Below the pieces are notes generated by a model, which ran no database searches, was not told the origin of the DNA, and saw nothing but the letters and a program-made list of their open reading frames with translations. A DNA stretch of 64,000 bases from Deltaproteobacteria bacterium (GTDB lineage Bacteria; Desulfobacterota; Binatia; JACPRU01): positions 8,275 through 72,274 of the forward strand of contig JACPRU010000078.1 in NCBI GenBank assembly GCA_016189835.1, read 5' to 3'. Position numbers and translations under genes: made by a program. The first letter of the stretch is position 1. Every line of letters starts with the position of its first letter. Below, piece after piece: positions 4,390-64,000 of this stretch.

Positions 4390-4425
4390 GGCGCGGCTCA
4401 GGTCACGACGGCTCGCCGCCGCACC

Positions 4426-13192: not shown

Positions 13193-14269
13193 TCATCCGA
13201 GGCAGACCTTCCACGACTTTCCGCCGTCTTCGCTGCGCAGGATCGTTCCGTAGCCTCCCACCAGCCACCCGTTCTGGGCGTCGGCGAAGTCGACCGAGCG
13301 AAGCCACGTGTAGACCGGCATGCCGAGGTCGGCGCGAGTCCACTCCGTCTGCCCGGCGGGGAGACGCACGACCTCCCCCGCCGCCCCGACCGCCCAGGCG
13401 GTGCCGTCGGCGGTGACGTAGGGCTGGTAGAGCGGATCGGCGAGCGGAAAAGCGAGCTTCATCGGCTCGAAGCGCCAGGTCGCGCCACCGTCCCGCGTGC
13501 GCGCGATCCGGCCGTCGAGGCCAGCCGCCAGGGCTTCCCGATCGTTGATCACGAACTGACCGAAGAACGTCGGCAAGTTCATCGCATCGACGATGCCCGA
13601 CTCGGGAGTCATCAGCGTGTTCTGGCGGGCGGTCCAGGTCTGGCCGCCGTCGATGGTTCTCAGCAGCTGTCCGAACTCTCCCGAGATCCAGCCGTTGCGC
13701 TCGTCCGTGAAGCGCACGTCGTAGAAGATCGGATCCTGCATGGCGAGCGCCATCTCGGACTCGCTGTCCTGCGGCGCGAGCGCCACCTGGCGTGCCTGCC
13801 AGGTCTGGCCGCCGTCGCTGGTCTCGGCGAGGGTCGATCGGTCGCCGACCGCGAAGCCGCGGCTCTCGTTCAGGAAGTACACCGAGAACAGGTAGACCTT
13901 GGTGCCGCTGTCCTGCTTCTGCCAGGTCTTGCCGCCGTCGGCCGAATGCAGGATCAGCCCCTTCTGCCCGACCACCCACAGCCGGTTGCCGACGGCCGCG
14001 ATCTTGTAGAGCGCGAGGTCGGTGCCGCCGTCGATGCGGGCGAAGCTCGTACCCCCGTCGTCGGTCGCGAGCATCTTGCCGCCGTAGCCGACGATCAGCG
14101 CCCGGGTCGGTGACAGCGCCTTCACGTCGTAGAACTTGTCCGAGAAGTAGATGTTCTGATCGCTGAGCGGCACGTTCTCCACCTGGGAGTGACAGGCCCC
14201 GAGCGTCACACCCAAGCCGAGCGCGGCGGCGGCGATCCCCAGGCGTACCTTGATCCTGCTCACGACCAC
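13193..14269 (-). CDS. Ycf48/Hcf136-like BNR-repeat beta-propeller lipoprotein
   Basis: Repeated SxDGGxTW motifs (TDDGGTSF, SADGGKTWQ, TSDGGQTWQ, TIDGGQTWT, TRDGGATWR, SEDGGKSWK). GTG 14269 lies 9 nt after GGAG and gives the signal peptide VVVSRIKVRLGIAAAALGLGVTLGAC with a lipobox. The ATG 14341 of the ORF track is probably too far upstream. Confidence 0.75.
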   Translation of the reverse strand: MVVSRIKVRLGIAAAALGLGVTLGACHSQVENVPLSDQNIYFSDKFYDVKALSPTRALIVGYGGKMLATDDGGTSFARIDGGTDLALYKIAAVGNRLWVVGQKGLILHSADGGKTWQKQDSGTKVYLFSVYFLNESRGFAVGDRSTLAETSDGGQTWQARQVALAPQDSESEMALAMQDPIFYDVRFTDERNGWISGEFGQLLRTIDGGQTWTARQNTLMTPESGIVDAMNLPTFFGQFVINDREALAAGLDGRIARTRDGGATWRFEPMKLAFPLADPLYQPYVTADGTAWAVGAAGEVVRLPAGQTEWTRADLGMPVYTWLRSVDFADAQNGWLVGGYGTILRSEDGGKSWKVCLG

Positions 14270-19030: not shown

Positions 19031-19348
19031 TCTCCGGCGTGGATCCGTTCCGCGCCCTGCCCGCATCCGCCGCGTTCCCGACGAACAGTTGATGGATCTC
19101 CACGAGAAGCGCAAGCGGCGAACCATCTGCGAGACCGCGGGCGGGACTGCGCGGGTCGCGCCCGTGCCCGGCACCCGGGGGCTGCGACGACGCGGGGCGC
19201 CGGCTCGTTCCACACGGCGCGAGCGTGCGGCGCAGAGTGGGACGCCGGCTTGCGGCGCGTGCTCGGGGCGCGGGCCCTTCCCTCGCCGCACCCGGCGGGG
19301 CTACAAGCGGAGAGCCGCTCTCGCCGGAGGCGGCCGGAGGGCCTGCGC

Positions 19349-32475: not shown

Positions 32476-32489
32476 CGCTGCGTTCGCCT

Positions 32490-32677
32490 CTCAGCGCGGC
32501 ACAGCCGCAACCGAACGGTGGTCGCGTACTGAGGCCTCGTATCCCATATCTTCGTGCAAAACAGCGAAGTCGCGTCCTAGCAGCTCAGCGCGACACAGCC
32601 GCAACCGGGAACGGCGGCCGCGTACGGAAACCTCGCATCTCATGTCTTCGTGCAAGACGGCGAAGTCGGCCCCGGCG
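32490..32677. repeat. tandem duplication of a ~94-bp non-coding unit
   Basis: Unit 1 spans 32490-32583 and unit 2 spans 32584-~32677. Both begin CTCAGCGCG(G/A)CACAGCCGCAACC and share the ...CGCGTAC... and TCTTCGTGCAA(A/G)AC(A/G)GCGAAGTCG blocks. Identity is roughly 80-85% over ~80 nt by eye, with a 2-nt indel. Confidence 0.8.
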
Positions 32678-44880: not shown

Positions 44881-45027
44881 CGCTCAAGATCGATTCGCAA
44901 TCGCGGTCATCGACGAGGCCGCTCAATCTACCAGACAGGGGTGGGGGTTCAAGCCGCGGCCGTGGGCGGCGCTGGCGCGTGGGACGCCGCGGTTGAACGG
45001 CGGCTTGCGATCTGTGAAGAAGGTGCC

Positions 45028-51009: not shown

Positions 51010-51060
51010 AAGGGGTCGGGAGTCGTTTTCCGGACCCGGAAAACGACTCCCGACCCCTTT
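51009..51060. repeat. REP-like palindromic element, full copy with compensated 1-bp insertion
   Basis: AAAGGGGTCGGGAGTCGTTTTCCGG (51009-51033) is the complement of CCGGAAAACGACTCCCGACCCCTTT (51036-51060). The extra G in the left arm is matched by an extra C in the right arm. It lies between convergent genes. Confidence 0.85.
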
Positions 51061-52204: not shown

Positions 52205-54175
52205 ATGTCGAAACGTGCGCTCGATGTCGCCGCAGCCATGCCCGCACCCGCCGCCGATGCCGCGGCCCTCGGCGTGCGCCGTGAGCTGCGGCGTGGTCGG
52301 GCGCGGTTGCGGCAAGCTCTCGCGCTGGCCGTCCCGCTGCTGCTGCCGATCCCTGGATACGGCTTCGCCGCCCCCGCCTGGCGATCCGTCGGCGCGCCGG
52401 TCGACGGATCGGCGGTGTTCGCGAAGCGCTGCGCTCACTGTCACACCATGGCCTTCCTGATGCCGACGCCTCAGCCGATGTCCAAGCTCGGCGAGGAGGA
52501 CATCTACGACGCCCTGTGGCGCGGCGCGATGGCCGAGATCGCCAACGGGCTCGATGACGCCGAGCGTCGCGCCGTCGCGAAGTACATCGCCGGTCTGAGC
52601 CCGGACAAGCCCGACCGCACGAGCGGCGCGCGCACCTGTGCCGCGGGCGCGAGCGGCGGTTCCCCGCCGAGCGCCGCGGGGACCGAGTGGGGGGGCTGGT
52701 CGGCGGACGCTCGCAATACGCGAGAGCAGGCGCAGCTGAAGCTCACGCCGGATCAGGTCCAGGGGCTGCGCCTCAAGTGGGCCTTCGTGTTTCCCGACGA
52801 GGCGGCGTTCACCGGCGGCGGGAACCAGATCACGGTGGTCGGCGGGCGGATCTACGTCGGCAACTTGAACAAGTGGGTCTACGCGCTCGATGCCGCGACC
52901 GGATGCGCCCACTGGACTTACCGCGCCGAGGGCCGGGTGCGCTCGGACGTGGTCGTCGCCGGCGGCGTGGCGGTATTCGGCGATCTGCTCGCCAACGTCT
53001 ACGGGCTCGACGCGGCGACGGGGCGGCTGCTCTGGAAGGTGCGCGCCGATGCGCAACCCTCGGCGAGGATCACCGGAAATCTCACGGTGCACGACGGGGT
53101 CGCCTACGTGCCCGTCTCGACTCTCCAGGAAGTCTACGGGATGAAGGGAGACGTCCCGTGCTGCAGCGGCAGCGGCAGCGTCGTCGCGATCGACGTCCGC
53201 AGCGGCGAACGAGTCTGGAAAACCTACATGGTCGAGACGCCGCTGCGCTACCTCGGGAAGACCAAGACGGGGACCGCGCGCTATGGGCCCGCCGGCGTCG
53301 TCCTGTGGGCGCCGCCGACCGTGGATGCCAAGCGCGGCGTGGTGTACGCGGCGACCGGCAACCAGCACTCCGAGCCGCTCGTCGCCGAGTCCGACGCCAT
53401 CGTCGCCCTGGACCGGAAGACCGGGGCGAAGCGCTGGATTCGCTCGCTCGCTCCGCGGCAAATGGGCGGCAAGGACATCTATCACCTCGGCTGCGAGAAG
53501 TGGGTCGACGAGACCCGCGCGACGTGCTCCCCGCTCAATCCCAAGGGGCAGGGCGACCGGGACTTCGGTTCTCCGGCCGTCCTGCAAGTCCGCGATGACG
53601 GACGAGAGATCCTGCTCGCGGGGTCGAAGGACGGCATGTTCTACGCCCTGGACCCGGACGACGAAGGCAAGGTGCTCTGGGAGGTCCGTCTCGGGCGCGG
53701 CGGCGAGACCGGCGGCATCCTCTACGGCTTCGCGACCGATCGTCGCCGAGCCTATGTTCCGATCTCGGACATGGACGCGGATCTCACGGCGGATGGTGCT
53801 CTCAATGCCGTCGATCTCATGACCGGGAACCGAGTCTGGCGCCAGCCGGTGCCGCGCGAAACGTGCCAGGGCAAGCCCCAGATGTGCTCGAACGCCATGA
53901 TGTCGCCGCCGACGCTGGTCGGCAACGTCGTGTTCGCCGGCGCCAACGACGGTTACCTGCGGGCATTCGACGCCGACGACGGTCACGTTCTCTGGCAATA
54001 CGACACCACCCGGGAGTTCGAGGGCGCGAACGGCCGCAAGGGCCACGGGGGCTCGCTGGCGTTCGGTGGCCCCGCCGTGGTGAACGGGATGCTGTTTCAG
54101 AACTCCGGGATGGGGCTGCTGAACATGGCCCTGCCCGGCAACGTGCTGCTGGCGTTCGAATACCCGACGCCGTGA
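52205..54175 (+). CDS. PQQ-type beta-propeller dehydrogenase with N-terminal c-type cytochrome domain (polyvinyl-alcohol dehydrogenase-like)
   Basis: CAHCH heme-binding site near the N-terminus, followed by repeated propeller motifs (VYALDAATGCAHW, VYGLDAATGRLLW, VVAIDVRSGERVW, IVALDRKTGAKRW, FYALDPDDEGKVLW, AVDLMTGNRVW, LRAFDADDGHVLW). The start is uncertain (ATG 52205 after GAGGGA, or ATG 52148). Confidence 0.75.
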   Translation: MSKRALDVAAAMPAPAADAAALGVRRELRRGRARLRQALALAVPLLLPIPGYGFAAPAWRSVGAPVDGSAVFAKRCAHCHTMAFLMPTPQPMSKLGEEDIYDALWRGAMAEIANGLDDAERRAVAKYIAGLSPDKPDRTSGARTCAAGASGGSPPSAAGTEWGGWSADARNTREQAQLKLTPDQVQGLRLKWAFVFPDEAAFTGGGNQITVVGGRIYVGNLNKWVYALDAATGCAHWTYRAEGRVRSDVVVAGGVAVFGDLLANVYGLDAATGRLLWKVRADAQPSARITGNLTVHDGVAYVPVSTLQEVYGMKGDVPCCSGSGSVVAIDVRSGERVWKTYMVETPLRYLGKTKTGTARYGPAGVVLWAPPTVDAKRGVVYAATGNQHSEPLVAESDAIVALDRKTGAKRWIRSLAPRQMGGKDIYHLGCEKWVDETRATCSPLNPKGQGDRDFGSPAVLQVRDDGREILLAGSKDGMFYALDPDDEGKVLWEVRLGRGGETGGILYGFATDRRRAYVPISDMDADLTADGALNAVDLMTGNRVWRQPVPRETCQGKPQMCSNAMMSPPTLVGNVVFAGANDGYLRAFDADDGHVLWQYDTTREFEGANGRKGHGGSLAFGGPAVVNGMLFQNSGMGLLNMALPGNVLLAFEYPTP

Positions 54176-54246: not shown

Positions 54247-56691
54247 GTGCGCAGATTCGTCGAACTCGCGGTGACGTTCCGATACGTCCTCCTCGCCTTC
54301 TGTGCCGCGCTGACGGGATTCTTCGCCTACGTGCTCGTCACCCAATCCAGGCTCTACGACGATCCCAACGACTGGCTGCCGGCGAACAGCGCGATCGGCA
54401 ATCTCAACAATTACATGCAGGAGAAATTCGGCGGCGGCAACCTGGTGACGATCCAGGTGAGCGTCGAGAACGGGGACATCTTCAACGCCGAGACGTTGAA
54501 CAAGGTCAAGCGCATCACCCGGGAGGTCGGCCTCATCTGGGGAGTGATCCCCTACGCGCTGCAGTCCATCGCCGACATCAAGACCAAGTACATGCGGGCC
54601 ACGGAGGAGTTCCTCGACGTGACGCCGCTCCTCGAGCAGGTGCCGCGGACGCCCGAAGAGATGGAGCGGCTCAAGTGGGGCGTCTACCACAATCCGCTCA
54701 TCTACGGGGCGCTCGTCTCTCCGGACGTCAAGTCGACCATCATCCAGGCCGATTTCCGCACCGGCCTCGGATTGTCGAAGAGGAAGGACCTGCCGATCAC
54801 CGACCCCGTCTCCATCTACCGGGCCATCAGCGACATCATCGACAAGGAAAAGGACGCGAATCACGTCATTCAGGCGGCCGGCACGCCGATCATCATCGGC
54901 TGGGTGAACAGCGAGGGGCTGTTGTACATCGCGCTCGCGTTCCTGGCCTTCGTCGGGGGCGTGACCGCGGTCCTCTGGCGCGCGTTCCGCAGCTTCCGCG
55001 GCGCTTTCATCGCCGTGGCTCTCGGGCTCGTGGCCTCGCTGTGGGCGTTCGGCGTGAAGGCGCTCCTCCACGGCCCGGTTCTGGAATCGGCATCGGCGTT
55101 GATCGCGCCGTTCATCGTCGTCGCCGCCGCCGCTTGCCACCACACGCAGTTCTTGAAGCGCTTCTTCGACGAGGAATACCCCAAGGCCGGCGACGCGCGC
55201 CGCGCGATCGTCAACACCTTCACGCCGCTGCTGTTCCCGCTCATGGGCTCGCTGGTGACCGACGTCGTCGCCTTCGTGGTGATGGCGTTCGTGCCGTTCA
55301 AGAACGTCTCCGAGCTCGGCGTCACCGCCACCTACGGCCTCTTGTCGATCGTCTTCAACGTCTTCTTCCTGCAGATCCCCATGCTCGCCGTGTTGCACGG
55401 CTCGCCCCGGGAGATGGCCGCCGTCCGGGCCCGCCACGTCGACAGACGCAAGACCCGCATCGTCCGCCTCCTCGAGGAACTGGTCGAGGATCTCGTCACC
55501 AGGACCCGCCGGGGCAAGGTGATGGTCGCGTGCGTGTTCGGTGCCTTTCTCCTGTCGCTCGCCTGCATCCCGTTCCTCGACCCGGGACAGGACAACACCT
55601 ACGCCATTCACAACTTCCTCACCCGCTCCTGGAGGAACAACGAGATCTTCCAGATGGAGCAGAACATCAAGAAGCATTTCGAGGGCGTCTATCCGCTGAC
55701 CATCCGGATCGACAGCGGCGCGGTGGACGGATTGAAGGAGCCCGAAGTCGAACGCGCGATCGAAGCCTACGAGAACTTCATGCTCCGGCAACCGGGGGTC
55801 AAGGGCGCCCTCGGCCTGCCCGACTACGTCAAGATGATCAATCAGTTCTACGAGGGAGGAGATCCGCGGCACAACCGGCTGCCCGAGGACCCGCAGGCGG
55901 TCGGGCTGGAGCTCGAATACTACCAGGAGGGCTTTCCCGGCAGCTTCGATGCGGTGGCCTCCGTGGACTTCAAGGAGCACGCGCTGCGAGTCTACACGGG
56001 TGACACGAGCCACGGGACCGTTCGGGCAGTCGTCGAGGCCGCGCGACATTATGCCGAGAGCACGTTCAATCGAGGCGAGCTGAGCGCCGAGGTGGGCGGC
56101 GGGGCGGTGGCGATCGCCTACGGCTTCAACGAGAACATCGGCCGCTGGCTGATCCTCGCGACGCTCGCGAGCTTCGTCTCGTCGTTCGTGGTGCTCATAC
56201 CGATCTTCCGGTCGATCGTCGGCCCGGCGCTGTTGTTGCTGCCGCTGGCGCTCGGCACGGTGATCTGGCTCGGCATCGTGTTTCTCTGCGGCATCGAGAT
56301 CAATTCCTTCACGACCGCGGGCATGGCGATGGCGGCGGGGGTGGGAGTCGATGCGGAGCTCTACCTGCTCGGCCGCTTTCGCGAGGAGTACGCGGCGAGC
56401 GGCGATTTCCAGGCGGCGCTCAAGGAGGGATTCGTCAAGGTGCGGGAGGCGCTCAGTTATTCGTACGTCGGACTGATCGCCGGGTGTTGGACTTTGATCC
56501 CGATCCCACTGTACGTGGGGTATCTCGGATTCGGCATGGGGCTCATCCTTCTCGTCTGCTTCCTCTGCAGCTTCGTCGTATCGCCGTTTCTCTGGAGCGT
56601 CTTGCAACCGAAGTTCCTGCTTCCGACCGTTGGGCGCGAAGCGGAACCGGATCTCACACCGATTGCCCGCGAAGGGGGAAGGAGGTCGTGA
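54247..56691 (+). CDS. MMPL/RND-superfamily transporter, copy 2
   Basis: 814 aa. GTG 54247 follows GGGAGG. Same architecture as copy 1 (FGGGNLVTIQVSV, AAGTPIIIGW, MAAGVGVDAELYLLGR). The stop shares one base with the next start (TGATG). Confidence 0.8.
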   Translation: MRRFVELAVTFRYVLLAFCAALTGFFAYVLVTQSRLYDDPNDWLPANSAIGNLNNYMQEKFGGGNLVTIQVSVENGDIFNAETLNKVKRITREVGLIWGVIPYALQSIADIKTKYMRATEEFLDVTPLLEQVPRTPEEMERLKWGVYHNPLIYGALVSPDVKSTIIQADFRTGLGLSKRKDLPITDPVSIYRAISDIIDKEKDANHVIQAAGTPIIIGWVNSEGLLYIALAFLAFVGGVTAVLWRAFRSFRGAFIAVALGLVASLWAFGVKALLHGPVLESASALIAPFIVVAAAACHHTQFLKRFFDEEYPKAGDARRAIVNTFTPLLFPLMGSLVTDVVAFVVMAFVPFKNVSELGVTATYGLLSIVFNVFFLQIPMLAVLHGSPREMAAVRARHVDRRKTRIVRLLEELVEDLVTRTRRGKVMVACVFGAFLLSLACIPFLDPGQDNTYAIHNFLTRSWRNNEIFQMEQNIKKHFEGVYPLTIRIDSGAVDGLKEPEVERAIEAYENFMLRQPGVKGALGLPDYVKMINQFYEGGDPRHNRLPEDPQAVGLELEYYQEGFPGSFDAVASVDFKEHALRVYTGDTSHGTVRAVVEAARHYAESTFNRGELSAEVGGGAVAIAYGFNENIGRWLILATLASFVSSFVVLIPIFRSIVGPALLLLPLALGTVIWLGIVFLCGIEINSFTTAGMAMAAGVGVDAELYLLGRFREEYAASGDFQAALKEGFVKVREALSYSYVGLIAGCWTLIPIPLYVGYLGFGMGLILLVCFLCSFVVSPFLWSVLQPKFLLPTVGREAEPDLTPIAREGGRRS

Positions 56692-58385
56692 TGTTGGCGC
56701 ACAGGTGCTCGTCAAGCGGCATTGGGCTGGTGCTCATCGCCGGTCTGCTCGTGGCCTGCCCTCGATGGTCCTGGGCGGCGGCTCCCGCCGAAGCCGCCGC
56801 GGTCGGATCGCCGCGATTTCTGGCGCCCGGGGAGGTTCGTCCGTCGTTCCGGGACCTCGCCGACAAGGCGCGAGACCCGGTCGAGTCTCTCCACCTCAAC
56901 GCCTGGGTGTTCAACGAGATGCTGATGCGAGCCAGCTCGCCGCGGGTCGGCAGCATCTTCAGCCAGCGCAACGAGTTCAACCTGCAGGCGAGCTACGCCG
57001 TCAACGACAACCTGAAGCTCTATACGTGGATCCGCCCGTATTACGACAGCATCTACGACTGGCACGGCGGGTCGCTGACCGGTCGAAACGGCGCTACGCT
57101 GCGCTCCGACTGGCAGGACAGCTTGAACTGGGACAACGAGAAGGACCCGGTGTTCCGCGAGGTCTACGCCGACGTCGTCTACGGCGACTTCTGGGGCCGT
57201 TTCGGGCGCCAGATCGTCGCCTGGGGAAAATCGGACGGGATCTTCCTCCTCGACAACATCAGTCCGTTCAATTTCCGCGAGCCGCAGCGCTTTCAGGAGC
57301 AGGAGATCAAGATCCCGCAGTGGATGCTGAACTTCAATTACCGGTTCGGCACGTTCGGCACCGCCCAGCTGATCTGGGTTCCCAAGCCGGAGTTCGCATC
57401 CTACCCGGGGATCGGGCCGCTGAAGCGATTCACCGGCGGGCCGAATTGCGAGCACGACCTCGAATTCAGCTCCACCTGCCTCGTGAACCAGCTGTTCGTG
57501 ACCTTCGACGAGTTCTTCAAGGCGAACGGGATCGTCGGCGCCGACGGCAAGCTCGGCTATCCCTTCCCGAACACGAGCAAGCCTCCGTCCCGTCTCGAGA
57601 ACAGCGCCGTGATGGCCCGCTTCGACTCCTCGCTCGGCCAGCTCAACTACAGCCTGGCGTACGAGTACAAGTACAACTGGTTCTTGCAGGACCTGCCGGA
57701 CGTGGGTGACCACGAGGGCACCGTCGGCCGAGGCACCGCGGCGCTCGGCATCGGCAACGTGCGCCGGGCGCAACGCATCCACATCATCGGCGGCGCCGCC
57801 GACTACCAGTTCCCGTGGCTGCCGCCGTTCGGAGAGAACACCGTCATGCGCGTCGAGACCGGCATGTTCCTGAACGACATGTTCTTCCTGCCGGACACTT
57901 CGGGATCGGAGAAGAACCACTATCAGGTCATGATCGGGGTGGACAAATTCTTCACGGACCCCGAGTGGTTGAACTTCCCGGCGCTCGGCCTCGGATCGAG
58001 CGGCGTATCCTGGTTCTTCAGCATGCAGGTCTTCTCCGACTTCATCATTCGTCCGGACCACTGGAAGAACGCCTACTGGACGGGCGGCACGAACAACTTC
58101 GATTTCGAGACGCTGCAAGCGACCAACGGGCTGCGCGACGCGACCCAGCAGTACATCACGTTCTTCCTCGGCAAGGATCTGCTGCCCGACCAGTCGCTGA
58201 ACCTGGAGGAGTTCGTGCTCATCGATCCGAACTTCGGCAACGTCTGGGAGCACATCCAGTTCAAGTACATGTTCAGCGACTTCGTGAGCTTGGCGATCGG
58301 ATACAATCGCAACTGGGGGCGTGAGAGCGAGCCGTTCGGGTCGAACCCGGACTACATGTGGACGCAGTTCACCTTCGGGATCTAG
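56691..58385 (+). CDS. DUF1302-family outer-membrane beta-barrel protein
   Basis: 564 aa from ATG 56691 with a signal peptide (GLVLIAGLLVACPRWSWA). The GRFGRQIVAWGKSDG motif and the aromatic C-terminus WTQFTFGI are typical of DUF1302 barrels. Confidence 0.75.
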   Translation: MLAHRCSSSGIGLVLIAGLLVACPRWSWAAAPAEAAAVGSPRFLAPGEVRPSFRDLADKARDPVESLHLNAWVFNEMLMRASSPRVGSIFSQRNEFNLQASYAVNDNLKLYTWIRPYYDSIYDWHGGSLTGRNGATLRSDWQDSLNWDNEKDPVFREVYADVVYGDFWGRFGRQIVAWGKSDGIFLLDNISPFNFREPQRFQEQEIKIPQWMLNFNYRFGTFGTAQLIWVPKPEFASYPGIGPLKRFTGGPNCEHDLEFSSTCLVNQLFVTFDEFFKANGIVGADGKLGYPFPNTSKPPSRLENSAVMARFDSSLGQLNYSLAYEYKYNWFLQDLPDVGDHEGTVGRGTAALGIGNVRRAQRIHIIGGAADYQFPWLPPFGENTVMRVETGMFLNDMFFLPDTSGSEKNHYQVMIGVDKFFTDPEWLNFPALGLGSSGVSWFFSMQVFSDFIIRPDHWKNAYWTGGTNNFDFETLQATNGLRDATQQYITFFLGKDLLPDQSLNLEEFVLIDPNFGNVWEHIQFKYMFSDFVSLAIGYNRNWGRESEPFGSNPDYMWTQFTFGI

Positions 58386-58399
58386 GCGGGGAAGCGCTC

Positions 58400-60496
58400 G
58401 TGAAGCAGGGGTATCGCGAGAGCGAGCCGTTGCTGCGGTCGATTCCGGGCGGCGCCGGCGAGCCTCGCATCGAGGCCGCGCCGCCGGCGAATCCCGGGAT
58501 GCCGCCCCATCCTGGGTGGTGGGCCGGCACCTGGGCCGTGCTCGTCAAGGAGATCCGCGAGATGGGCCGCTCTCCCCTGCTCCATCTCCTCGGAGCCGTG
58601 TTCCTCGGCCTGGCGGGATACTTCTTCTACACCGATCTCCTGTACTTCGATCTCATGAACCAGGATGGCGCAGGCCTGATGCAAGGCCTGTGGCAGCGGT
58701 ACTTCGAGGACATCCGGCTCTGCCTGCTGACGATCCTGCCCGTGCTCGGGGCACGGGCATTTGCCGAGGAGAAGCGCCGCGGCACGATGGAGATGCTCTT
58801 GACCTATCCGCTCGGCGAGGGACAGCTGGTCGCCGGGAAGTTCCTCGCGCTGCTGATCGTCCTGCTCCCGCTGCTCGGCATCACGCTCACCTACCCCTTC
58901 GTCCTCGGCCTCATCTGGCCCGTCGATCCCCGGCCGCTGGTCGCCGCCTACCTGGGCGTGACCTTGCTGGCCGTCGCCTGCCTCAGCCTCGGAATGCTGT
59001 GCTCCGCGCTGGCCCGCCAGCAGTCCGCGGCGGCGCTCGCGGCATTCGGCGTGCTCTCCTTCCTGTGGTTTCTCAACTGGAACGAATTCGCGGCGAGCCC
59101 GGCGATCGCGAACGTGTTGCAGCGCCTGTCGCTGTTCGACCGCTTCTACGATTTCAGCCGCGGCACCGTGCGCAGCGCGGACGTCGCCTACTTCCTGATG
59201 ATCACCGCGGGCCTGTCGTTCGCCGCCCGCGAGACGCTGCGCTGGCCGTGGCATCGACGGCGGCCCGCCCGGGTCCTGAGGATCGCGCTCGTCGCCGCGA
59301 TCGCCATCGGCTTCGATCAGCTCGTGCTCCGCCGTGGTCCGACCTGGGAGCTGTCGAGAGAGGCCGACGCGACGTTGGCGGCGCACGCCGCCCGAGCGCT
59401 GGCCGGGGTCGAGACCGCGGTCGAATTGACGTTCTTCTACGAGCCGGGCCGCTACTCCGAGACCGAATTCTTCGCCGACCGCTACCGCCGCGCCTCGCCG
59501 CGGATCGCCGTCCGTCTGGCGGACCTGGACCGCGAGCCGTCGCTGGCGCGACGGTACCGGGTCACGGCGTACGGCGAGGTCGTCGTTCGCTCCGGCGAGC
59601 GCTGGACCGTGGTCGACGAGGCGAGCGACGGCGCGATCGTCCGCGCGGTGCTCGACGTGACGGACCCCAAGCCGCGCGTGGTCTGCGCGACGACCGGGCA
59701 CGGCGAAAGCGAGATCTTCGCCGCCGGCCGCGCCGAGGGAGAACAGCCGAGATCCGTCGGCGAGCTGCTCGAACGAATCGGCTACCGCTGGCGCGAGCTG
59801 GCCCTCGACGCCGCTCCGGGCGGAGCGGCCGATTGCGGCATCGTCCTGGCGAACGGTCCGAAGAGAGACTTCACAGCGGCCGAGGTCGACGGGGTCGCGG
59901 CGTTCGTCGGCGGCGGCGGCGCCGCGCTGCTGCTGCTCGATCCGCTGGACACGCCGAATCTCGCGGGTCTCGCCGGGCGTTACGGCGTCGTTCTCGGCGA
60001 CCGGGTGTCGGCGGATGGGTCGTCTCGCCTGTACCGCAACGACCGCTACACGCTGGCCGCAACCGGCGGACTGGAGTCCGCCGGCCGCCGCCACTTTGCG
60101 GCGGTCCTCTACGACGCTCGCCAGATCGGCATCGCCGGGGACGGCGCGGAGCCACGGGGGTTCCCGTTTCTCCACTACCGCTCGCCCCGCCGCGGCGAGG
60201 TGCCGCTGGCGGCGGCGATCGGGCGCAACGGCGCCGACGGCGGGGTGATCGTCGTCGGGGACTCCGATTTCCTCGATGGGCGCCTGTTCACGCGGATGAG
60301 CAGCCAGGACCTGTTCGTGGAGATGGTGCAATGGCTGGCGCGGCCGGACGAGCTTCCCCGCGACCGCGGGGCGCGCGATCGATTCGCCCCGTTGACCGAG
60401 CGACAGGCGCGGATCTGCCTCGGGACGGCGATGATGCCGGCGATCGTCTTTTTCGGCGTCGGCGGCGCGCGATGGTGGCGCAGGCGATGGACCTAG
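58400..60496 (+). CDS. fusion of an ABC-2 (GldF-like) permease and a GldG-like auxiliary domain
   Basis: The N-terminal ~290 aa is a 6-TM ABC-2 permease (AEEKRRGTMEMLLTYPL). An extra TM follows. The GldG-like domain has TFFYEPG, VVCATTGHGE and VVVGDSDFL plus a terminal TM with WWRRRW. GTG 58400 follows GGGGAAG; the start is uncertain. Confidence 0.7.
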   Translation: MKQGYRESEPLLRSIPGGAGEPRIEAAPPANPGMPPHPGWWAGTWAVLVKEIREMGRSPLLHLLGAVFLGLAGYFFYTDLLYFDLMNQDGAGLMQGLWQRYFEDIRLCLLTILPVLGARAFAEEKRRGTMEMLLTYPLGEGQLVAGKFLALLIVLLPLLGITLTYPFVLGLIWPVDPRPLVAAYLGVTLLAVACLSLGMLCSALARQQSAAALAAFGVLSFLWFLNWNEFAASPAIANVLQRLSLFDRFYDFSRGTVRSADVAYFLMITAGLSFAARETLRWPWHRRRPARVLRIALVAAIAIGFDQLVLRRGPTWELSREADATLAAHAARALAGVETAVELTFFYEPGRYSETEFFADRYRRASPRIAVRLADLDREPSLARRYRVTAYGEVVVRSGERWTVVDEASDGAIVRAVLDVTDPKPRVVCATTGHGESEIFAAGRAEGEQPRSVGELLERIGYRWRELALDAAPGGAADCGIVLANGPKRDFTAAEVDGVAAFVGGGGAALLLLDPLDTPNLAGLAGRYGVVLGDRVSADGSSRLYRNDRYTLAATGGLESAGRRHFAAVLYDARQIGIAGDGAEPRGFPFLHYRSPRRGEVPLAAAIGRNGADGGVIVVGDSDFLDGRLFTRMSSQDLFVEMVQWLARPDELPRDRGARDRFAPLTERQARICLGTAMMPAIVFFGVGGARWWRRRWT

Positions 60497-60557
60497 CGGA
60501 GCAGAGTGGAATGGACTCGACCGGAGCCCCTCCTCGGGCTCCGCGGGCGGCCGCCGA

Positions 60558-61121
60558 ATGAAGACGAACGCCGCTTTGTGCCTCCTCGCCGCGCTGCTGG
60601 CGGTGCTCGCCTACCGGGATGCGGCCGGCCCGCGGCCCGCCGAGGAGCGCTCGCCCCCGACGCGCGGCGCCGCGATGGGAGAGCCGCTGCTGCGGCTGCA
60701 GCGCCCCCGGGTCACCGCGATCGACGTCCGCGACGGGCGAGACTGTCTGGTGGCCCGAGCGACGGCGCCAAGCGGCGCCGCGCAGAGCGAACTGGCGGCG
60801 CTGGCCGATCTGCTGGCCGGGACCAGGACGATCCGCCGTTTTCCACCCGCCGCGGACTGGAGCGCGTACGGGCTCGACGAGCCGAGGATGCGCATCGAAG
60901 TGTCGCAGAGCGGCGACGAGCGTTTCCAGGAGATCGCGATCGGCGACGTCGCTCCGACCGGGACCTCGGTGTACGCGCGCCGAGATCGCGGAGAAGAGGT
61001 GCTGGTCGTCGGCCGCTATTTCCTGCAGCAGCTGGAACTGGCCGTGCCGCAGCTCCAGGAACGCGACCTCGGGACCGCTCGCCCCTGTACTCCGGACATC
61101 GTCCGGTCGAGGGCGTCGTGA
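60558..61121 (+). CDS. DUF4340-like periplasmic protein (N-terminal anchor)
   Basis: 187 aa with an N-terminal hydrophobic anchor. WSAYGLDEPRMRIEV...IAIGDVAPTGTSVYARR resembles DUF4340 repeats, which typically follow GldG genes. Confidence 0.6.
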   Translation: MKTNAALCLLAALLAVLAYRDAAGPRPAEERSPPTRGAAMGEPLLRLQRPRVTAIDVRDGRDCLVARATAPSGAAQSELAALADLLAGTRTIRRFPPAADWSAYGLDEPRMRIEVSQSGDERFQEIAIGDVAPTGTSVYARRDRGEEVLVVGRYFLQQLELAVPQLQERDLGTARPCTPDIVRSRAS

Positions 61122-61897
61122 ACGATCCCATCGTCGAGCTCGAATCGGCAACCAAGGTCTTCGGCGGGGTCGCCGCCGTGAACGACGTGTCGCTTCGCAT
61201 CGACGCCGGAGAGGTGATCGGTCTGGTCGGACCCAATGGGTCGGGGAAGACGACGCTGATGCGTCTTCTGTGCGCCTACTTTCCCCCCACCCGCGGCAGC
61301 GTTCGAGTCGCCGGCCACGACACGCGCGACGCTCGCGCCGAGGTGCGTCGCCGCGTCGGCTACGCGCCGCAAGGGGTGTCGCTGTACCCCGACCTCAGTG
61401 TGTACGATTTTCTGTCGTTCGTCGCGAGCGTGAAGCACGCGGGGCCCGCGCAGCTCGGCTACGTGGTCGAGCGTTGCGGGCTCGGGCCGCGGATGCAGCA
61501 GCGGATCGACACCCTTTCGAAGGGCTACCGCCAGCGAGTCGTCCTGGCGCAGGCGATGCTCGGAGATTCGCCGGTCCTGCTGCTGGATGAGCCGACGATG
61601 GGCCTCGATCCGGAGGCGGCCATCGAAGTGCGGGCCTGGATCCGCTCCTTCCGGGGGAACCGCACCGTGGTCCTCACGACGCATTCCTTGAACGAGGCGA
61701 TCGTCCTCTGCGACCGGATCCTCGTGCTGGACCGGGGAAGCATTCTCGCGCAGGGCCGGCCGCGAGATCTGTTTCCCGGACGGGTCGGGGTCTCGACGCT
61801 CGAGGACGAGCTCGTTCGACTGTTTCAGTCTCGCTCGCGCGCGGAACGGGTCGTAACCAGTCTCACAGTTCAGTCGAGGATGGAGGATAGACCATGA
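61118..61897 (+). CDS. ABC transporter ATP-binding protein (ABC-2/GldA-like)
   Basis: 259 aa. GTG 61118 overlaps the upstream TGA (GTGA). Walker A GPNGSGKTT, signature LSKGYRQR and Walker B LLLDEPT are present. Confidence 0.85.
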   Translation: MNDPIVELESATKVFGGVAAVNDVSLRIDAGEVIGLVGPNGSGKTTLMRLLCAYFPPTRGSVRVAGHDTRDARAEVRRRVGYAPQGVSLYPDLSVYDFLSFVASVKHAGPAQLGYVVERCGLGPRMQQRIDTLSKGYRQRVVLAQAMLGDSPVLLLDEPTMGLDPEAAIEVRAWIRSFRGNRTVVLTTHSLNEAIVLCDRILVLDRGSILAQGRPRDLFPGRVGVSTLEDELVRLFQSRSRAERVVTSLTVQSRMEDRP

Positions 61898-63153
61898 GAA
61901 CGATGGGTCACAGGCGATCGTCAGGCATCCTGCTCGCGGCCGCGGTGGCAGTTGGGCTGCTGGCCCTGCCGCCGGCAGGCCGGACCGAGGAGGCGAAACC
62001 CGCGGGCGGTGGGGAGGTCGTGTACTCGAAGACCGTGCTCGGCAAGGAGTACCGGATCGAGCGCATCGCGGGGGAAAAGGGAGCGTATCGGGTGTCCTGG
62101 GGGCAGGAGACGACGAAGTGGGAGCCCAAGCCCTACTACGAGAACGAGGTCAACGAGAAGGGCCCGATGTTCTACGTCGAGTACTCCGAGGCGATGAAGA
62201 AGCTCTTCCCGTACAACGTCCCGCTCGAGGAGCGCGAGAAGTTCACCGCCTTCGACGTGCAGAACTCCGGGGCGTTCTTCGCTCCGTTCGTGAACGGAGG
62301 CCTCGACCTTCAGGACATGTTCGAGGGACACCTCTACTCGCCCACCGGCTACCGGCGCGACAAGACCGGGTTCGAGTACAACAAGTGGTTTCTCGAGGGG
62401 CGGACGCGCGGTGTCTGGGATCCCAACGACACCAGCGGCCAGCCCTACCGGAAGTACATCTTCGTGTTCCGGTCTCCGCGCGACCTCGCGAAGGTGGGGT
62501 TCCTGCAGATCCAGTATCAGGGCCAGAAGGAGGACGACAACCTGCTCTACGTCCCCACCGTGCGGAAGGTCCGCCGCCTGGCGACCGCGAACCGCCAGGA
62601 CGCGACCGGCGGCCTGGTGCTCCGCCAGGAGCAGAACGCGCTGATGACGCCGATTCACAACTACAAGATGATCGGCAGCCAGCTGCTGCGCCTGGCCGAG
62701 ACCGACCCGGGCCTGGGCTTCGAGGGGACCGAAGACCAGGGCACTCCCTCCAACGACGCCAAGCGCATCGACGGCATGGCCGAACCCTGCTGGGTCTACG
62801 AGACCACGCCTTTCCGACCGGACTGGTGGTTCGCCCGCCAGGTCAACTACGTGGGCATCTTCAGCATGGCCTCGTGGCGGACGGATTCCTTCGATGCCAA
62901 CGGCCGTCTCATCCAACGCTTGATGTGGTTCCAGACGCTGTCGCCGCCCGGAGACGACTCCCGGGGAGTCCCGCAGACCGGCCGAAAGACGTTCCTGGCG
63001 TGGGGACCCGCCCCCGTGAAGGACTACACTACCGGCTTCCTGACCATCTTCTTCCCGAGCCAGCGCACGGTCAACCCGAATCTTCCCGACAGCATGTACA
63101 ACACCAACACCCTGATCGAGGAGCCGAAGGTCATCGATTTCTATCGGAGGTGA
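61894..63153 (+). CDS. DUF1329-family (LolA-like) periplasmic/outer-membrane lipoprotein-sorting-fold protein
   Basis: 419 aa. The ATGA overlap with the ATPase stop suggests coupling. A signal peptide is present. LLYVPTVRKVRRLATANRQDATGG matches the conserved DUF1329 core. Confidence 0.75.
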   Translation: MRTMGHRRSSGILLAAAVAVGLLALPPAGRTEEAKPAGGGEVVYSKTVLGKEYRIERIAGEKGAYRVSWGQETTKWEPKPYYENEVNEKGPMFYVEYSEAMKKLFPYNVPLEEREKFTAFDVQNSGAFFAPFVNGGLDLQDMFEGHLYSPTGYRRDKTGFEYNKWFLEGRTRGVWDPNDTSGQPYRKYIFVFRSPRDLAKVGFLQIQYQGQKEDDNLLYVPTVRKVRRLATANRQDATGGLVLRQEQNALMTPIHNYKMIGSQLLRLAETDPGLGFEGTEDQGTPSNDAKRIDGMAEPCWVYETTPFRPDWWFARQVNYVGIFSMASWRTDSFDANGRLIQRLMWFQTLSPPGDDSRGVPQTGRKTFLAWGPAPVKDYTTGFLTIFFPSQRTVNPNLPDSMYNTNTLIEEPKVIDFYRR

Positions 63154-63260
63154 ACGCCGGTCTCGGGAGCCATCGTGGGGCGGGGGGCGTCTCCCCCGCC
63201 CTCTCGCGGTCCGGCGACCGTCGCGGTCTGTCACTCGCCGTCGAGTAGGGAGAAGGCCAT

Positions 63261-64000
63261 ATGCTGGAAGAGCGATACGGCGACGTGAGCATCGCCCTCG
63301 ACGGCAACGTCGCGCTGGTCGAGATACACCGGCCGCCGCACAACTTCTTCGACGTCGCGCTGACCCGCAACCTCGCCGACGCCTTCGAAGCGCTCGACGG
63401 CGAGTCCGAGTGCCGCGCCTCGGTGCTCTGCGCCGAGGGAAAATCGTTCTGCGCGGGTGCGAATTTCGGCAACCGCGAGTCCGAGCCGGTATCCGGCATC
63501 GCCAACCCGCTCTACTCGGAGGCGGTCCGGCTGTTCGCCTGCCAGAAGCCGATCGTGGCGGCGGTCCACGGCGCGGCGATCGGCGGCGGACTCGGGCTGG
63601 CGCTGGTCGCGGATTTTCGCGTGGTCTCTTCCGAGGCGCGCTTCGCGGCCAACTTCGTGAAGCTCGGCATCCATCCGGGCTTCGGTCTCACGCACACGCT
63701 GCCGCGGCTGGTGGGCGTTCAGAAGGCGGCGCTGATGTTCTACACCGGCCGGCGCATCGGCGGCGAAGAGGCGGTCGCCTGGGGCCTGGCCGACCTGTTC
63801 GCCGAGCCGAGCCGGCTGCGCGCCGCCGCCCTGGAGCTGGCGGCGGAGGTCGCCGAGGGCGCGCCGCTCGCGCTGCTCTCGATTCGCGCGACGATGCGCC
63901 GGGGGCTCGCCGAGGCGGTGCGAGCGCAGACCGATCACGAGGCGCGGGAGCAGGCCCGGCTGTTCCGCACCGAGGACCACCGCGAGGGCGTCCAGGCGGT
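63261..64000 (+). CDS. enoyl-CoA hydratase/isomerase family protein, 3' end outside window
   Basis: It is not in the ORF track because it has no stop inside the window. ATG 63261 follows GGGAGAAGG. The translation MLEERYGDVSIALDGNVALVEIHRPPHNFF...FCAGANF...AAVHGAAIGGGLGLALVADF has the crotonase motifs. Confidence 0.8.
   Translation, partial: MLEERYGDVSIALDGNVALVEIHRPPHNFFDVALTRNLADAFEALDGESECRASVLCAEGKSFCAGANFGNRESEPVSGIANPLYSEAVRLFACQKPIVAAVHGAAIGGGLGLALVADFRVVSSEARFAANFVKLGIHPGFGLTHTLPRLVGVQKAALMFYTGRRIGGEEAVAWGLADLFAEPSRLRAAALELAAEVAEGAPLALLSIRATMRRGLAEAVRAQTDHEAREQARLFRTEDHREGVQA

What the first reader, a model, noticed from the sequence alone, without database searches (positions are those of the whole stretch)
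54247..63153. Six-gene coupled envelope module: a GldFG-like ABC system inserted inside an RND-DUF1302-DUF1329 cluster
**Seen in the sequence.** Six same-strand genes run in this order: MMPL/RND transporter, DUF1302 barrel, GldF-GldG fusion permease, DUF4340, ABC ATPase, DUF1329. The junctions are TGATG (56689-56693), a 14-nt gap, a 61-nt gap, GTGA (61118-61121) and ATGA (61894-61897).

**Established knowledge (from memory).** DUF1302, DUF1329, a Ycf48-like BNR protein and an MMPL-type RND transporter recur as a conserved cluster in proteobacteria, and I know of no accepted mechanism for it. GldF/GldG/DUF4340 ABC modules are a separate, widespread and poorly understood unit.

**Inference.** Here the two units are interleaved and translationally coupled. 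That arrangement suggests one trans-envelope machine with two energisers (PMF and ATP), a LolA-like shuttle and an outer-membrane barrel. Its cargo is plausibly a very hydrophobic lipid, such as a wax ester, long-chain alcohol or hydrocarbon. The context fits this idea:
- A periplasmic cyt-c/PQQ dehydrogenase lies upstream and a crotonase downstream.
- WS/DGAT and FadL genes are in the same window.
- The usual BNR partner is displaced to 13193-14269.
- A second DUF1329 gene sits at the window start.
Basis: partly seen in the sequence, partly recalled or inferred. Interest (0 to 1): 0.8.

Follow-up and report, generated by a model that had tools for sequence, protein, structure and literature searches.

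The report
ABC-augmented RND/barrel/LolA-like envelope transporter
Six tightly packed genes join two poorly understood bacterial envelope systems (an RND pump with an outer-membrane barrel and a LolA-like carrier, and a GldFG-like ABC transporter). The same combination recurs in many uncultured bacteria, so it is probably one conserved transport system for hydrophobic molecules rather than a chance insertion.

Summary
Six + strand genes lie at the stated coordinates with the stated junctions, and all six family assignments pass Pfam thresholds.

The main inference, that the ABC and RND/DUF1302/DUF1329 genes form one functional unit, is supported by comparative genomics:
- The set recurs in at least four gene orders in Binatia and delta-proteobacterial MAGs and in metagenome contigs (GC 0.42-0.72).
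- It recurs in at least five RND clades.
- The RND and GldF trees are congruent (Mantel r = 0.93).

In the window's own clade, the steadiest partners of the ABC permease are DUF1329 and DUF1302, not the RND. One 83%-identical relative has barrel, ABC, DUF4340 and LolA-like genes but no RND. This clade never carries the BNR partner.

The proposed cargo (wax ester, alcohol or hydrocarbon) is not supported. Close relatives sit beside amine-dehydrogenase, amidohydrolase and sigma-54-regulated catabolic genes, and more distant ones sit among housekeeping genes.

Physical unity, transport direction and cargo remain inferences. I found no paper describing the ABC-augmented architecture. It is best filed as a new variant of the AmeABCD-type system.

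The parts
52205..54175 (+). PQQ-like eight-bladed beta-propeller protein with an N-terminal cytochrome c-like domain. It ends 71 nt upstream of the RND gene on the same strand and may be the first gene of the operon.
   Evidence: Pfam PQQ_2 120.9 bits, PQQ 111.5 bits, Cytochrome_CBB3 23.7 bits. NCBIfam PQQ alcohol-DH subfamily scores only 92 bits against a cut-off of 480. The gene call on L102 gives 656 aa. A PQQ_2 protein also follows the GldFG gene on a related JGI contig.
54247..56691 (+). HAE3-family (MMPL) RND inner-membrane transporter, 814 aa.
   Evidence: Pfam MMPL 83.4 bits. The best NCBIfam match is HAE3 TIGR00921 (E 1e-28, below its cut-off). It forms a BNR-less, ABC-linked clade with L001, L008, L019 and L020. 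H298, D339, D702 and Y706 are invariant across 9 RNDs.
56691..58385 (+). DUF1302 outer-membrane beta-barrel protein, 564 aa, with an N-terminal signal-like sequence.
   Evidence: Pfam DUF1302 28.3 bits against 23.2. An iterated HMM groups it with clear DUF1302 proteins (L015 scores 82 bits in Pfam). Its start overlaps the RND stop by 1 nt.
58400..60496 (+). Fused ABC-2 permease (GldF-like, NosY-like, 6 TM) plus GldG-like periplasmic GIFT domain flanked by TM helices, 698 aa. An alternative start is ATG 58499.
   Evidence: Pfam ABC2_membrane_2 71.2 bits and ABC_transp_aux 39.7 bits. NCBIfam GldF 99.6 bits, below its cut-off. The AF2 model has pLDDT 70.6. Foldseek matches IFT52 N-domain (TMt 0.67) and NosY (TMt 0.67). 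It is 100% identical to P0034.
60558..61121 (+). DUF4340 protein, 187 aa, with an N-terminal membrane anchor or signal sequence. It is the conserved partner of the GldG-like domain.
   Evidence: Pfam DUF4340 46.3 bits. It is found after GldG in 21 loci. The AF2 model is unusable (pLDDT 46.5) and there is no PDB relative.
61118..61897 (+). ABC ATPase, 259 aa, GldA/DrrA-like. Walker A, Q-loop, signature, Walker B-E and H-loop are all present.
   Evidence: Pfam ABC_tran 112.7 bits. The best NCBIfam match is GldA, 201.9 bits, below its cut-off. The motifs were read from the translation. There are 4-nt overlaps on both sides.
61894..63153 (+). DUF1329 / LolA-like periplasmic protein, 419 aa, with a signal-like N-terminus and no lipobox cysteine.
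   Evidence: Pfam LolA_like 38.8 bits and DUF1329 27.0 bits. Weak PDB matches to the LolA-like structures 4Z48, 9TP6 and 3BK5. Its orthologs follow the ABC ATPase gene in the window, L001, L019, L020, L104 and a JGI contig.
63260..64000 (+). Enoyl-CoA hydratase/isomerase gene, cut by the window end. It starts 106 nt downstream of the cluster. Context only.
   Evidence: Pfam ECH_1 173 bits. The gene call on L102 gives 258 aa.
48388..50781 (+). Second, orphan HAE3 RND ('MMPL2'). It is probably part of a separate, dispersed Ame-type system and not of the six-gene cluster.
   Evidence: Pfam MMPL 78.4 bits. NCBIfam HAE3 145 bits. It falls among the BNR-linked RND clades. A 20-bp-stem hairpin follows at 51012-51057.
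13196..14269 (-). Orphan BNR/Ycf48-like beta-propeller (AmeC-like). It more likely partners MMPL2 than the six-gene cluster.
   Evidence: Pfam PSII_BNR 138.9 bits. NCBIfam Ycf48 131 bits, below its cut-off. BNR genes precede MMPL2-like RNDs in many loci, but never precede RNDs of the window's clade.

Best explanation
The six genes encode one conserved, modular envelope transport system. It is an ABC-augmented version of the AmeABCD-type 'DUF1302 / DUF1329 / (BNR) / HAE3-RND' system.

**Shown**
- The genes are real, co-oriented and overlapping.
- The families are as stated.
- The same set is kept together in many unrelated contigs in several orders, and the components co-diversify.
- The ABC permease has the type-V (ABC-2, NosY/ABCG-like) fold, with a periplasmic GIFT domain held between two TM helices.
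- The ATPase has all its catalytic motifs.

**Inferred mechanism**
- Two exporter-class inner-membrane pumps are present: the proton-driven HAE3 RND, and the ATP-driven GldFG-like ABC with its single-pass DUF4340 partner.
- Each takes a hydrophobic small molecule or lipid from the inner membrane or periplasm.
- Each passes it to the soluble LolA-like carrier DUF1329, which docks on the DUF1302 outer-membrane barrel for release into or across the outer membrane.
- This would resemble RND and ABC pumps sharing TolC, or LolCDE-LolA-LolB.
- In the window's clade the ABC is the constant inner-membrane partner and the RND is an optional second pump.
- The cargo is unknown. In this clade it is probably a hydrophobic catabolic substrate or a toxic intermediate of the neighbouring periplasmic and cytoplasmic oxidoreductases.

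**My confidence by step**
- The ABC, DUF1329 and DUF1302 genes are functionally linked: about 0.85.
- The RND works in the same pathway: about 0.7.
- The direction is outward: about 0.5.
- Specific cargo: not determinable here.
For: **The genes.** Gene structure and junctions. Families.

**Conserved linkage in different gene orders.**
- Window, L102 and a JGI 7.4-kb contig: RND-1302-GldFG-4340-ATPase-1329.
- L001, L003 and L019: ATPase-1329-RND-1302-GldFG-4340-1329-1302.
- L015-18, L053, L069 and L082: 1302-BNR-RND-ATPase-GldF-GldG-4340-1329.
- L012 and L054: BNR-RND-1302-ATPase-GldF-GldG-4340.

**Frequency.** Among 80 metagenome loci found through the RND alone, 11 carry the ABC module beside it. 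Three more have an ABC ATPase at the contig end. Of the 22 loci with at least 6 kb downstream of the RND, 8 carry the module. GC ranges from 0.42 to 0.72.

**Co-diversification.** ABC-linked RNDs fall in at least 5 clades. The GldF tree shows the same clades. Mantel r = 0.93, with 0 of 2000 permutations reaching it.

**ABC with barrel and carrier but no RND.** L104/L105, L106 and L107.

**Fold.**

**Literature on the four-part system.**
- Deleting ameABCD lowers monoterpene tolerance and raises Nile Red accumulation (PMC6394551).
- The four genes show cofitness in several bacteria (bioRxiv 10.1101/072470).
- They are needed for growth on Tween 20 and butyl stearate in P. putida (bioRxiv 10.1101/2020.07.04.188060).
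- AlphaFold co-folding predicts DUF1329 contacting both the barrel and the RND (PMC10866462), and a DUF1302-DUF1329 complex with ipTM 0.84 (PMC13499233).
Against: - No experiment or complex prediction here links any ABC component physically to DUF1329, DUF1302 or the RND.
- The Mantel correlation is also expected from plain vertical inheritance of two unrelated neighbours.
- Some members of the same GldF subfamily have no RND, DUF1302 or DUF1329 nearby (L014). Others have only a DUF1329 gene 4-10 kb away (L004, L021). A further JGI contig has no RND or DUF1302 either, and no DUF1329 in the stretch shown.
- The sample of 80 loci was drawn with an alignment that included RNDs from ABC-linked loci, so the fractions are biased upward.
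- Outward direction rests on class precedent only. The P. putida ester phenotypes and the multiple DUF1329-DUF1302-amidohydrolase units read more naturally as uptake.
- The DUF1302 Pfam match of the window protein is weak and partial.
Confidence: 0.55

Rival explanations
1. It is an uptake system. The DUF1302 barrel and the DUF1329 carrier bring a bulky hydrophobic growth substrate across the outer membrane to periplasmic and cytoplasmic catabolic enzymes. The inner-membrane ABC and/or RND energise or gate this, or clear the carrier.
For: - In the window's clade the cluster sits in catabolic islands. Neighbours include a PQQ-like/cytochrome c protein, an SDR and an ECH in the window. Relatives carry quinohemoprotein amine dehydrogenase, amidohydrolases, Rieske oxygenase, P450, FMO and sigma-54/TetR/MarR regulators.
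- Extra DUF1329-DUF1302-amidohydrolase units without their own pump look like substrate-specific outer-membrane modules.
- P. putida DUF1302/DUF1329/BNR/RND mutants fail specifically on Tween 20 and butyl stearate (bioRxiv 10.1101/2020.07.04.188060). The Foldy paper calls it a 'substrate transport system' (PMC10866462).
Against: - Both pumps belong to exporter classes: HAE3 RNDs such as HpnN, and type-V ABC-2 transporters. No substrate-binding protein is encoded.
- Deleting ameABCD lowers tolerance and raises dye accumulation, which is efflux-like (PMC6394551).
- The commonest architecture (loci with BNR) lies among housekeeping genes, not catabolic ones.
Confidence: 0.25
2. The ABC module is a maturation or export factor for a neighbouring periplasmic redox enzyme. 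It would stand in for QhpF, which exports the QHNDH gamma subunit, or act like NosDFY, which matures NosZ. Its proximity to RND/DUF1302/DUF1329 would then be secondary.
For: - In at least 5 distinct loci of the window's clade, ATPase(-GldFG) directly follows qhpA-D-C-B plus a nitroreductase-family flavoprotein. A subtilisin (qhpE-like) gene lies upstream in L001, L002 and L021, and no canonical qhpF or qhpG is present in the DNA held.
- Known QHNDH operons need an efflux ABC transporter, QhpF (PMC7876137).
- NosY is the closest solved relative of the permease.
- A PQQ-like propeller flanks the module in the window and on a JGI contig.
Against: - The window has no QHNDH genes.
- L104/L105, L106, L107 and all BNR-type loci have no adjacent periplasmic redox enzyme.
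- In L001 and L019 the DUF1329-RND-DUF1302 genes lie between the ATPase and permease genes of the same transporter. This is hard to reconcile with an unrelated function.
- QhpF is a different ABC type (from memory, not tested here).
Confidence: 0.1
3. These are two independent systems that merely share an operon. The GldFG-like ABC exports something unrelated, and the RND/DUF1302/DUF1329 genes work alone as in Pseudomonas or Castellaniella.
For: - Most described Ame-type clusters have no ABC (PMC6394551, bioRxiv 10.1101/072470). Most sampled metagenome loci have none either.
- GldFG/DUF4340 modules occur alone, as in L014.
- No physical evidence links them.
Against: - The genes are embedded, not just adjacent, in at least four different orders across GC 0.42-0.72.
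- The clade structure is congruent.
- There are 4-nt overlaps between DUF4340/ATPase and ATPase/DUF1329.
- An ATPase-DUF1329 adjacency is conserved.
- ABC-plus-barrel-plus-carrier units exist without any RND.
Confidence: 0.07

Closest known systems
AmeABCD of Castellaniella defragrans, and the cofit DUF1302/DUF1329/BNR/RND clusters of Shewanella, Kangiella and Pseudomonas (PP_0765/0766 + PP_2018/2019)
   Same: An HAE3-family RND, a DUF1302 outer-membrane barrel and a DUF1329 LolA-like periplasmic protein are encoded together. They are often found in islands for hydrophobic substrates. A published model has DUF1329 bridging the barrel and the RND.
   Different: The window cluster and its whole RND clade lack the BNR/Ycf48-like AmeC partner. 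They carry a complete ABC transporter (fused GldF-GldG permease, DUF4340, ATPase) between the barrel and the carrier genes. No described Ame-type system includes an ABC pump.
GldA/GldF/GldG ABC transporter of Flavobacterium johnsoniae (needed for gliding; transported substrate unknown)
   Same: Same Pfam families (ABC_tran, ABC-2 permease, ABC_transp_aux/GIFT domain). GldA and GldF are the best-scoring NCBIfam models.
   Different: All scores are far below the equivalog cut-offs, so these are not orthologs. The permease and GldG are fused here. The host is not a Bacteroidota glider. The partners are DUF4340, DUF1302, DUF1329 and an RND, not gliding or T9SS genes.
NosDFY(L), an ABC-2 transporter that powers periplasmic maturation of N2O reductase
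   Same: NosY is the closest solved structure to the permease half (TMt about 0.67). It is a type-V ABC whose work is done through a periplasmic partner domain.
   Different: No NosD beta-helix or NosL is present. The periplasmic domain is a GIFT (IFT52-like) fold. No N2O reductase is encoded.
HpnN (hopanoid) and BstA (sterol) HAE3 RND lipid transporters
   Same: Same RND family. They move very hydrophobic lipids from the inner membrane towards the outer membrane, in the sterol case with periplasmic and OM-associated partners (BstB, BstC).
   Different: Scores are far below the equivalog cut-offs (29.8 and 27.9 bits). The partners are different, and no hopanoid or sterol synthesis genes are nearby.
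Shared-duct and shuttle paradigms: AcrAB/MacAB sharing TolC, and LolCDE-LolA-LolB
   Same: By analogy only. A PMF pump and an ATP pump use one outer-membrane exit, and an ABC transporter hands a lipidic cargo to a LolA-fold carrier and then to an outer-membrane acceptor.
   Different: There is no homology beyond the LolA-like fold. The ABC is type V, not type VII. The barrel is an AlgE/Occ-like monomer by published prediction, not TolC.

Membership tests
AmeABCD-type DUF1302/DUF1329/BNR/HAE3-RND cluster | HAE3-family (COG1033, MMPL) RND transporter | tested here: met
   Pfam MMPL scores 83.4 bits against a gathering score of 20.5. HAE3 TIGR00921 is the best NCBIfam match, at 99.7 bits, below its subfamily cut-off of 351.9. 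The protein groups with RNDs that have BNR/DUF1302/DUF1329 neighbours.
AmeABCD-type DUF1302/DUF1329/BNR/HAE3-RND cluster | DUF1302 outer-membrane barrel encoded alongside | tested here: met
   PF06980 scores 28.3 bits against 23.2, covering only residues 96-221. Orthologs carry precomputed PF06980 hits. An iterated HMM joins it to strong DUF1302 proteins.
AmeABCD-type DUF1302/DUF1329/BNR/HAE3-RND cluster | DUF1329 LolA-like periplasmic protein encoded alongside | tested here: met
   PF07044 scores 27.0 bits against 23.1. PF17131 scores 38.8 bits against 30.
AmeABCD-type DUF1302/DUF1329/BNR/HAE3-RND cluster | BNR/Ycf48-like (COG4447) periplasmic propeller next to the RND | tested here: not met
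   There is none in the cluster, and none in any locus of its RND clade (window, L001, L003, L008, L019, L020, L102). One orphan BNR gene lies about 40 kb away at 13196-14269.
AmeABCD-type DUF1302/DUF1329/BNR/HAE3-RND cluster | Role in tolerance to, or growth on, hydrophobic compounds | not testable with these tools
   This needs genetics. Only the literature on other organisms is available (PMC6394551; bioRxiv 10.1101/2020.07.04.188060).
GldAFG gliding-motility ABC transporter (NCBIfam equivalogs) | GldA equivalog score (TIGR03522) | tested here: not met
   201.9 bits against a cut-off of 402.6.
GldAFG gliding-motility ABC transporter (NCBIfam equivalogs) | GldF equivalog score (TIGR03518) | tested here: not met
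   99.6 bits against a cut-off of 288.5.
GldAFG gliding-motility ABC transporter (NCBIfam equivalogs) | GldG-type periplasmic domain (ABC_transp_aux / GIFT) | tested here: met
   PF09822 scores 39.7 bits against 34.7. Foldseek matches the IFT52 N-terminal domain with E 2e-6 and TMt 0.67. No NCBIfam GldG model matched.
Pfam DUF4340 | Score at or above the gathering threshold | tested here: met
   46.3 bits against 25.
Type-V (ABC-2) ABC transporter | ABC-2 permease fold and a catalytically complete ATPase | tested here: met
   ABC2_membrane_2 scores 71.2 bits. Foldseek matches NosY and ABCG transporters. Walker A (GPNGSGKT), the signature (LSKGYRQR), Walker B-E (LLLDEP) and the H-loop were read from the translation.
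NosDFY system | NosD periplasmic beta-helix partner and NosL/NosZ context | tested here: not met
   No such domains occur among the cluster's proteins or their neighbours.
   92.2 bits against a cut-off of 480. BamB and 'empty quinoprotein' models score similarly. Only the PQQ-like propeller plus cytochrome c-like domain is supported.

The most novel reading that the evidence does not exclude
GldFG-like ABC transporters with DUF4340 are inner-membrane engines of a modular lipid/hydrophobe conduit. They hand cargo to a LolA-like DUF1329 carrier and a DUF1302 barrel, and they can be interchanged or combined with an HAE3 RND (with or without BNR). This would be a new trans-envelope pathway class with either-or-both ATP and PMF drive. 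It would assign a role to four 'unknown function' families at once, and it would hint that the long-unexplained Bacteroidota GldAFG transporter also moves a lipidic cargo.
Probability: 0.35. Interest if true: 0.75.

Novelty: new variant of a known kind. Interest (0 to 1): 0.6.

Why it matters
DUF1302, DUF1329, DUF4340 and GldG-like ABC transporters are all widespread, and none has a defined mechanism. As of August 2026 no DUF1302 structure or direct functional study exists (PMC13499233). I found no paper giving a mechanism or cargo for the GldAFG transporter that Flavobacterium johnsoniae needs for gliding.

These families are kept together, in several gene orders and clades, and sometimes without the RND. 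That turns two separate puzzles into one testable hypothesis: exporter-class inner-membrane pumps feed a LolA-like carrier and an outer-membrane barrel.

It also points to which partners to co-fold or co-purify. In addition, it suggests the system matters for how uncultured soil and sediment bacteria such as Binatia handle hydrophobic or toxic catabolic substrates.

Tried and rejected
- **DUF4340 structure.** The alignment had only 4 sequences and the AF2 model is unusable (pLDDT 46.5). I did not run a fold search on it.
- **DUF4340 against the PDB.** A profile search with a 14-sequence alignment gave nothing below E = 0.06.
- **Other cluster proteins against the PDB.** Searches with the RND, barrel, permease and carrier found only distant relatives: MmpL4, NosY, IFT52, and the LolA-like structures 4Z48, 9TP6 and 3BK5. 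Nothing usable matched the barrel.
- **Promoter and terminator scan of 51-64 kb.** Zero promoters were found and terminators were at the chance rate. The only convincing hairpin (51012-51057) lies outside the cluster. Operon boundaries therefore rest on spacing alone.
- **Recurrent flanking genes in BNR-type ABC-linked loci.** These were SDR, LMW phosphatase, SLT/LysM, MobA-like, Sir2 and MBL-fold genes. They give no clue to the substrate.
- **Wax-ester or alkane cargo.** Rejected as unsupported. WS/DGAT and FadL are 34-39 kb away in the window and are absent from every related locus examined.
- **'Displaced BNR partner'.** Rejected in favour of the reading that the BNR gene belongs with the second RND.
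- **Literature searches.** Searches for DUF4340, GldG+GldF+RND, DUF1329+ABC+LolA-like and DUF1302 found no description of the composite.
- **Representative-library search.** I did not run it, because family size without genomic context would not change the verdict.

Full report
**1.

The window is about 70% G+C. Six + strand ORFs lie at:
- 54247-56691
- 56691-58385
- 58400-60496
- 60558-61121
- 61118-61897
- 61894-63153

An independent gene call on an identical public contig gives the same six products and the same overlaps (L102, Logan SRR12113390).

Pfam places each protein in the stated family above the gathering score. The DUF1302 match (28.3 bits, partial) and the DUF1329 match (27.0 bits) are weak. 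They are backed by a LolA_like hit (38.8 bits), by precomputed hits on orthologs and by iterated HMMs.

NCBIfam's best models are HAE3 for the RND, GldF for the permease and GldA for the ATPase. All three score far below the equivalog cut-offs.

The exact protein of gene 3 is deposited as 'MAG: Deltaproteobacteria bacterium' (P0034). The nearest named relatives are Candidatus Binatia and Thermodesulfobacteriota MAGs.

**2. What the parts look like.**

An AF2 model of the permease has moderate confidence (25-sequence alignment, pLDDT 70.6). It shows:
- a six-helix membrane domain
- a further TM helix
- an alpha/beta periplasmic domain
- a C-terminal TM helix

Foldseek matches the periplasmic domain to the IFT52 GIFT domain. 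It matches the membrane domain to NosY and to ABCG transporters, which have the type-V ABC fold.

The ATPase keeps Walker A, the Q-loop, the signature, Walker B with the catalytic glutamate and the H-loop (read). DUF1302 and DUF1329 begin with signal-like sequences. DUF4340 begins with a hydrophobic anchor. No solved structure is close to any of the six proteins. The DUF4340 model failed.

**3. The combination is conserved, not an accident of this genome.**

Neighbourhoods of homologs of the DUF1329 and GldFG proteins show the same gene set in other orders:
- ATPase-DUF1329-RND-DUF1302-GldFG-DUF4340 in L001, L003 and L019. This is a cyclic permutation of the window's order.
- The window's own order on a JGI contig.
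- A version interrupted by two minus-strand genes in L020.

A scan of species-representative genomes with a GldFG alignment found more distant relatives (39-46% identity, with GldF and GldG as separate genes). Their orders were:
- DUF1302-BNR-RND-ATPase-GldF-GldG-DUF4340-DUF1329
- BNR-RND-DUF1302-ATPase-GldF-GldG-DUF4340

I then sampled from the other side. I retrieved 80 metagenome loci through the RND alone and annotated them with iterated HMMs. The counts were:
- 63 have BNR, DUF1302 or DUF1329 partners.
- 11 have the ABC module directly alongside.
- 3 more end in an ABC ATPase at the contig edge.
- Of the 22 loci with at least 6 kb downstream of the RND, 8 have the module.
- GC ranges from 0.42 to 0.72.

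These fractions are biased upward, because the query alignment included RNDs from ABC-linked loci.

ABC-linked RNDs fall in at least five clades. The GldF tree shows the same clades. The two distance matrices correlate at r = 0.93, with 0 of 2000 permutations reaching that value. This fits long co-inheritance, although shared vertical descent alone could also produce it.

**4.

(a) In the window's own clade (GldFG at least 49% identical) I examined 14 distinct loci.
- DUF1329 and usually DUF1302 are the most constant neighbours of the permease.
- The RND is present in only about half.
- L104/L105, whose DUF1329 is 83% identical, is TetR | DUF1302-GldFG-DUF4340-ATPase-DUF1329, with no RND in the 4.4 kb upstream.
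- L106 and L107 are GldFG-(DUF4340-like)-DUF1329-DUF1302-amidohydrolase.
- The ABC is therefore not a passenger of the RND. It looks like an inner-membrane partner of the barrel/carrier pair in its own right.

(b) This clade never has the BNR/Ycf48-like gene.
- The window contains a second HAE3 RND at 48388-50781.
- That RND belongs to the BNR-linked part of the tree and is followed by a strong hairpin.
- The orphan BNR gene at 13196-14269 and the DUF1329 fragment at 3-344 are more plausibly its partners.

(c) The upstream 'PQQ dehydrogenase' is only a PQQ-like propeller with a cytochrome c-like domain (92 bits against a cut-off of 480). A PQQ_2 protein does, however, also flank the GldFG gene on another contig.

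**5. Context and cargo.**

WS/DGAT and FadL are real but lie 34-39 kb away, and they are absent from all related loci.

Close relatives sit in sigma-54-, TetR- or MarR-regulated catabolic islands. Neighbours include quinohemoprotein amine dehydrogenase plus a nitroreductase-family protein (at least 5 loci), amidohydrolases, Rieske oxygenase, P450 and FMO. The BNR-type loci sit among housekeeping genes.

The cargo is therefore probably clade-specific. For the window it is best described as an unknown hydrophobic substrate or intermediate.

The QHNDH adjacency has an alternative reading. Known QHNDH operons need an ABC exporter, QhpF, for the gamma subunit (PMC7876137), and no canonical qhpF is seen in the DNA held. 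This rival cannot explain the window or the many loci without QHNDH.

**6. Mechanism.**

Published work on the four-part system gives:
- a tolerance/efflux-like phenotype (AmeABCD, PMC6394551)
- cofitness of the four genes (bioRxiv 10.1101/072470)
- a requirement for growth on fatty esters in P. putida (bioRxiv 10.1101/2020.07.04.188060)
- AlphaFold co-folding that puts DUF1329 between the barrel and the RND (PMC10866462; ipTM 0.84 for DUF1302-DUF1329 in PMC13499233)

To this I add the present results. The most economical model is that exporter-class inner-membrane pumps (RND with or without BNR, the ABC with DUF4340, or both) load the LolA-like carrier, which delivers cargo to the barrel.

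The functional linkage is well supported. The physical complex, the direction and the cargo are inferred. Uptake is a serious rival, at about 0.25.

**7. Novelty.**

The RND/DUF1302/DUF1329(/BNR) cluster is known but mechanistically open. GldFG/DUF4340 modules are known only as families. I found no paper describing their conserved union.

I file the finding as a new variant of a known kind. It fails the BNR criterion of the Ame-type cluster and the equivalog criteria of GldAFG.

I score interest at 0.6. This is a solid, testable link between four 'unknown function' families. So far it rests on gene neighbourhoods in mostly uncultured bacteria.

Noticed in passing
window 48388-50781 (+) and 51012-51057: A second, orphan HAE3/MMPL RND about 3.5 kb upstream of the cluster, shown only as a distant paralog of the cluster's RND (phmmer E about 5e-70). 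It is followed by a perfect-looking 20-bp-stem hairpin shared with the convergent SDR gene. It falls among the BNR-linked RND clades.
   Followed up: partly
window 3538-6499 (-): Three consecutive minus-strand genes (295, 197 and 488 aa by stop-to-stop ORF) with coding-type GC3 but no Pfam or NCBIfam match. They lie next to a nitroreductase-family gene (6500-7432) that is distantly similar to the one linked to the ABC ATPase in related loci.
   Followed up: partly
L001, L019, L021, L004/L005 and a JGI 3300056388 contig: Quinohemoprotein amine dehydrogenase genes (qhpA, D, C, B) plus a nitroreductase-family flavoprotein directly precede the ABC ATPase of this GldFG subfamily. A subtilisin gene lies upstream in L001, L002 and L021. 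No canonical qhpF or qhpG is visible. The ABC and the flavoprotein may substitute for them.
   Followed up: partly
L019 16676-20999, L020 12142-16446, L106 9820-14175, L107 12202-16435: A recurring three-gene unit, DUF1329-DUF1302-amidohydrolase (Amidohydro_1/3, about 383 aa), sits next to the GldFG gene. It looks like a substrate-specific outer-membrane module coupled to a hydrolase.
   Followed up: no
window 31381-32490 (-): A strong match to the NCBIfam Rv3169 family (418 bits against a cut-off of 150). This family is named after a mycobacterial protein of unknown function, so its presence in a Binatia-like MAG is unexpected.
   Followed up: no
window 42328-44883 (-) and about 40.6-41.3 kb (-): An 851-aa ORF combines a GH2-like TIM-barrel domain with a family-2 glycosyltransferase. 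A further ABC ATPase domain lies just downstream on the same strand.
   Followed up: no
window 17987-20866 (+): The WS/DGAT domains start only at residue 463 of a 959-codon open frame, and a 438-codon minus-strand ORF overlaps the front part. The true start and any N-terminal extension of the wax-ester synthase are unresolved.
   Followed up: no
L004, L013, L018, L020, L021, L084, L088: Sigma-54-dependent activators, some with a MimR_N domain, recur beside ABC-linked clusters in seven loci. This suggests substrate-inducible expression.
   Followed up: no
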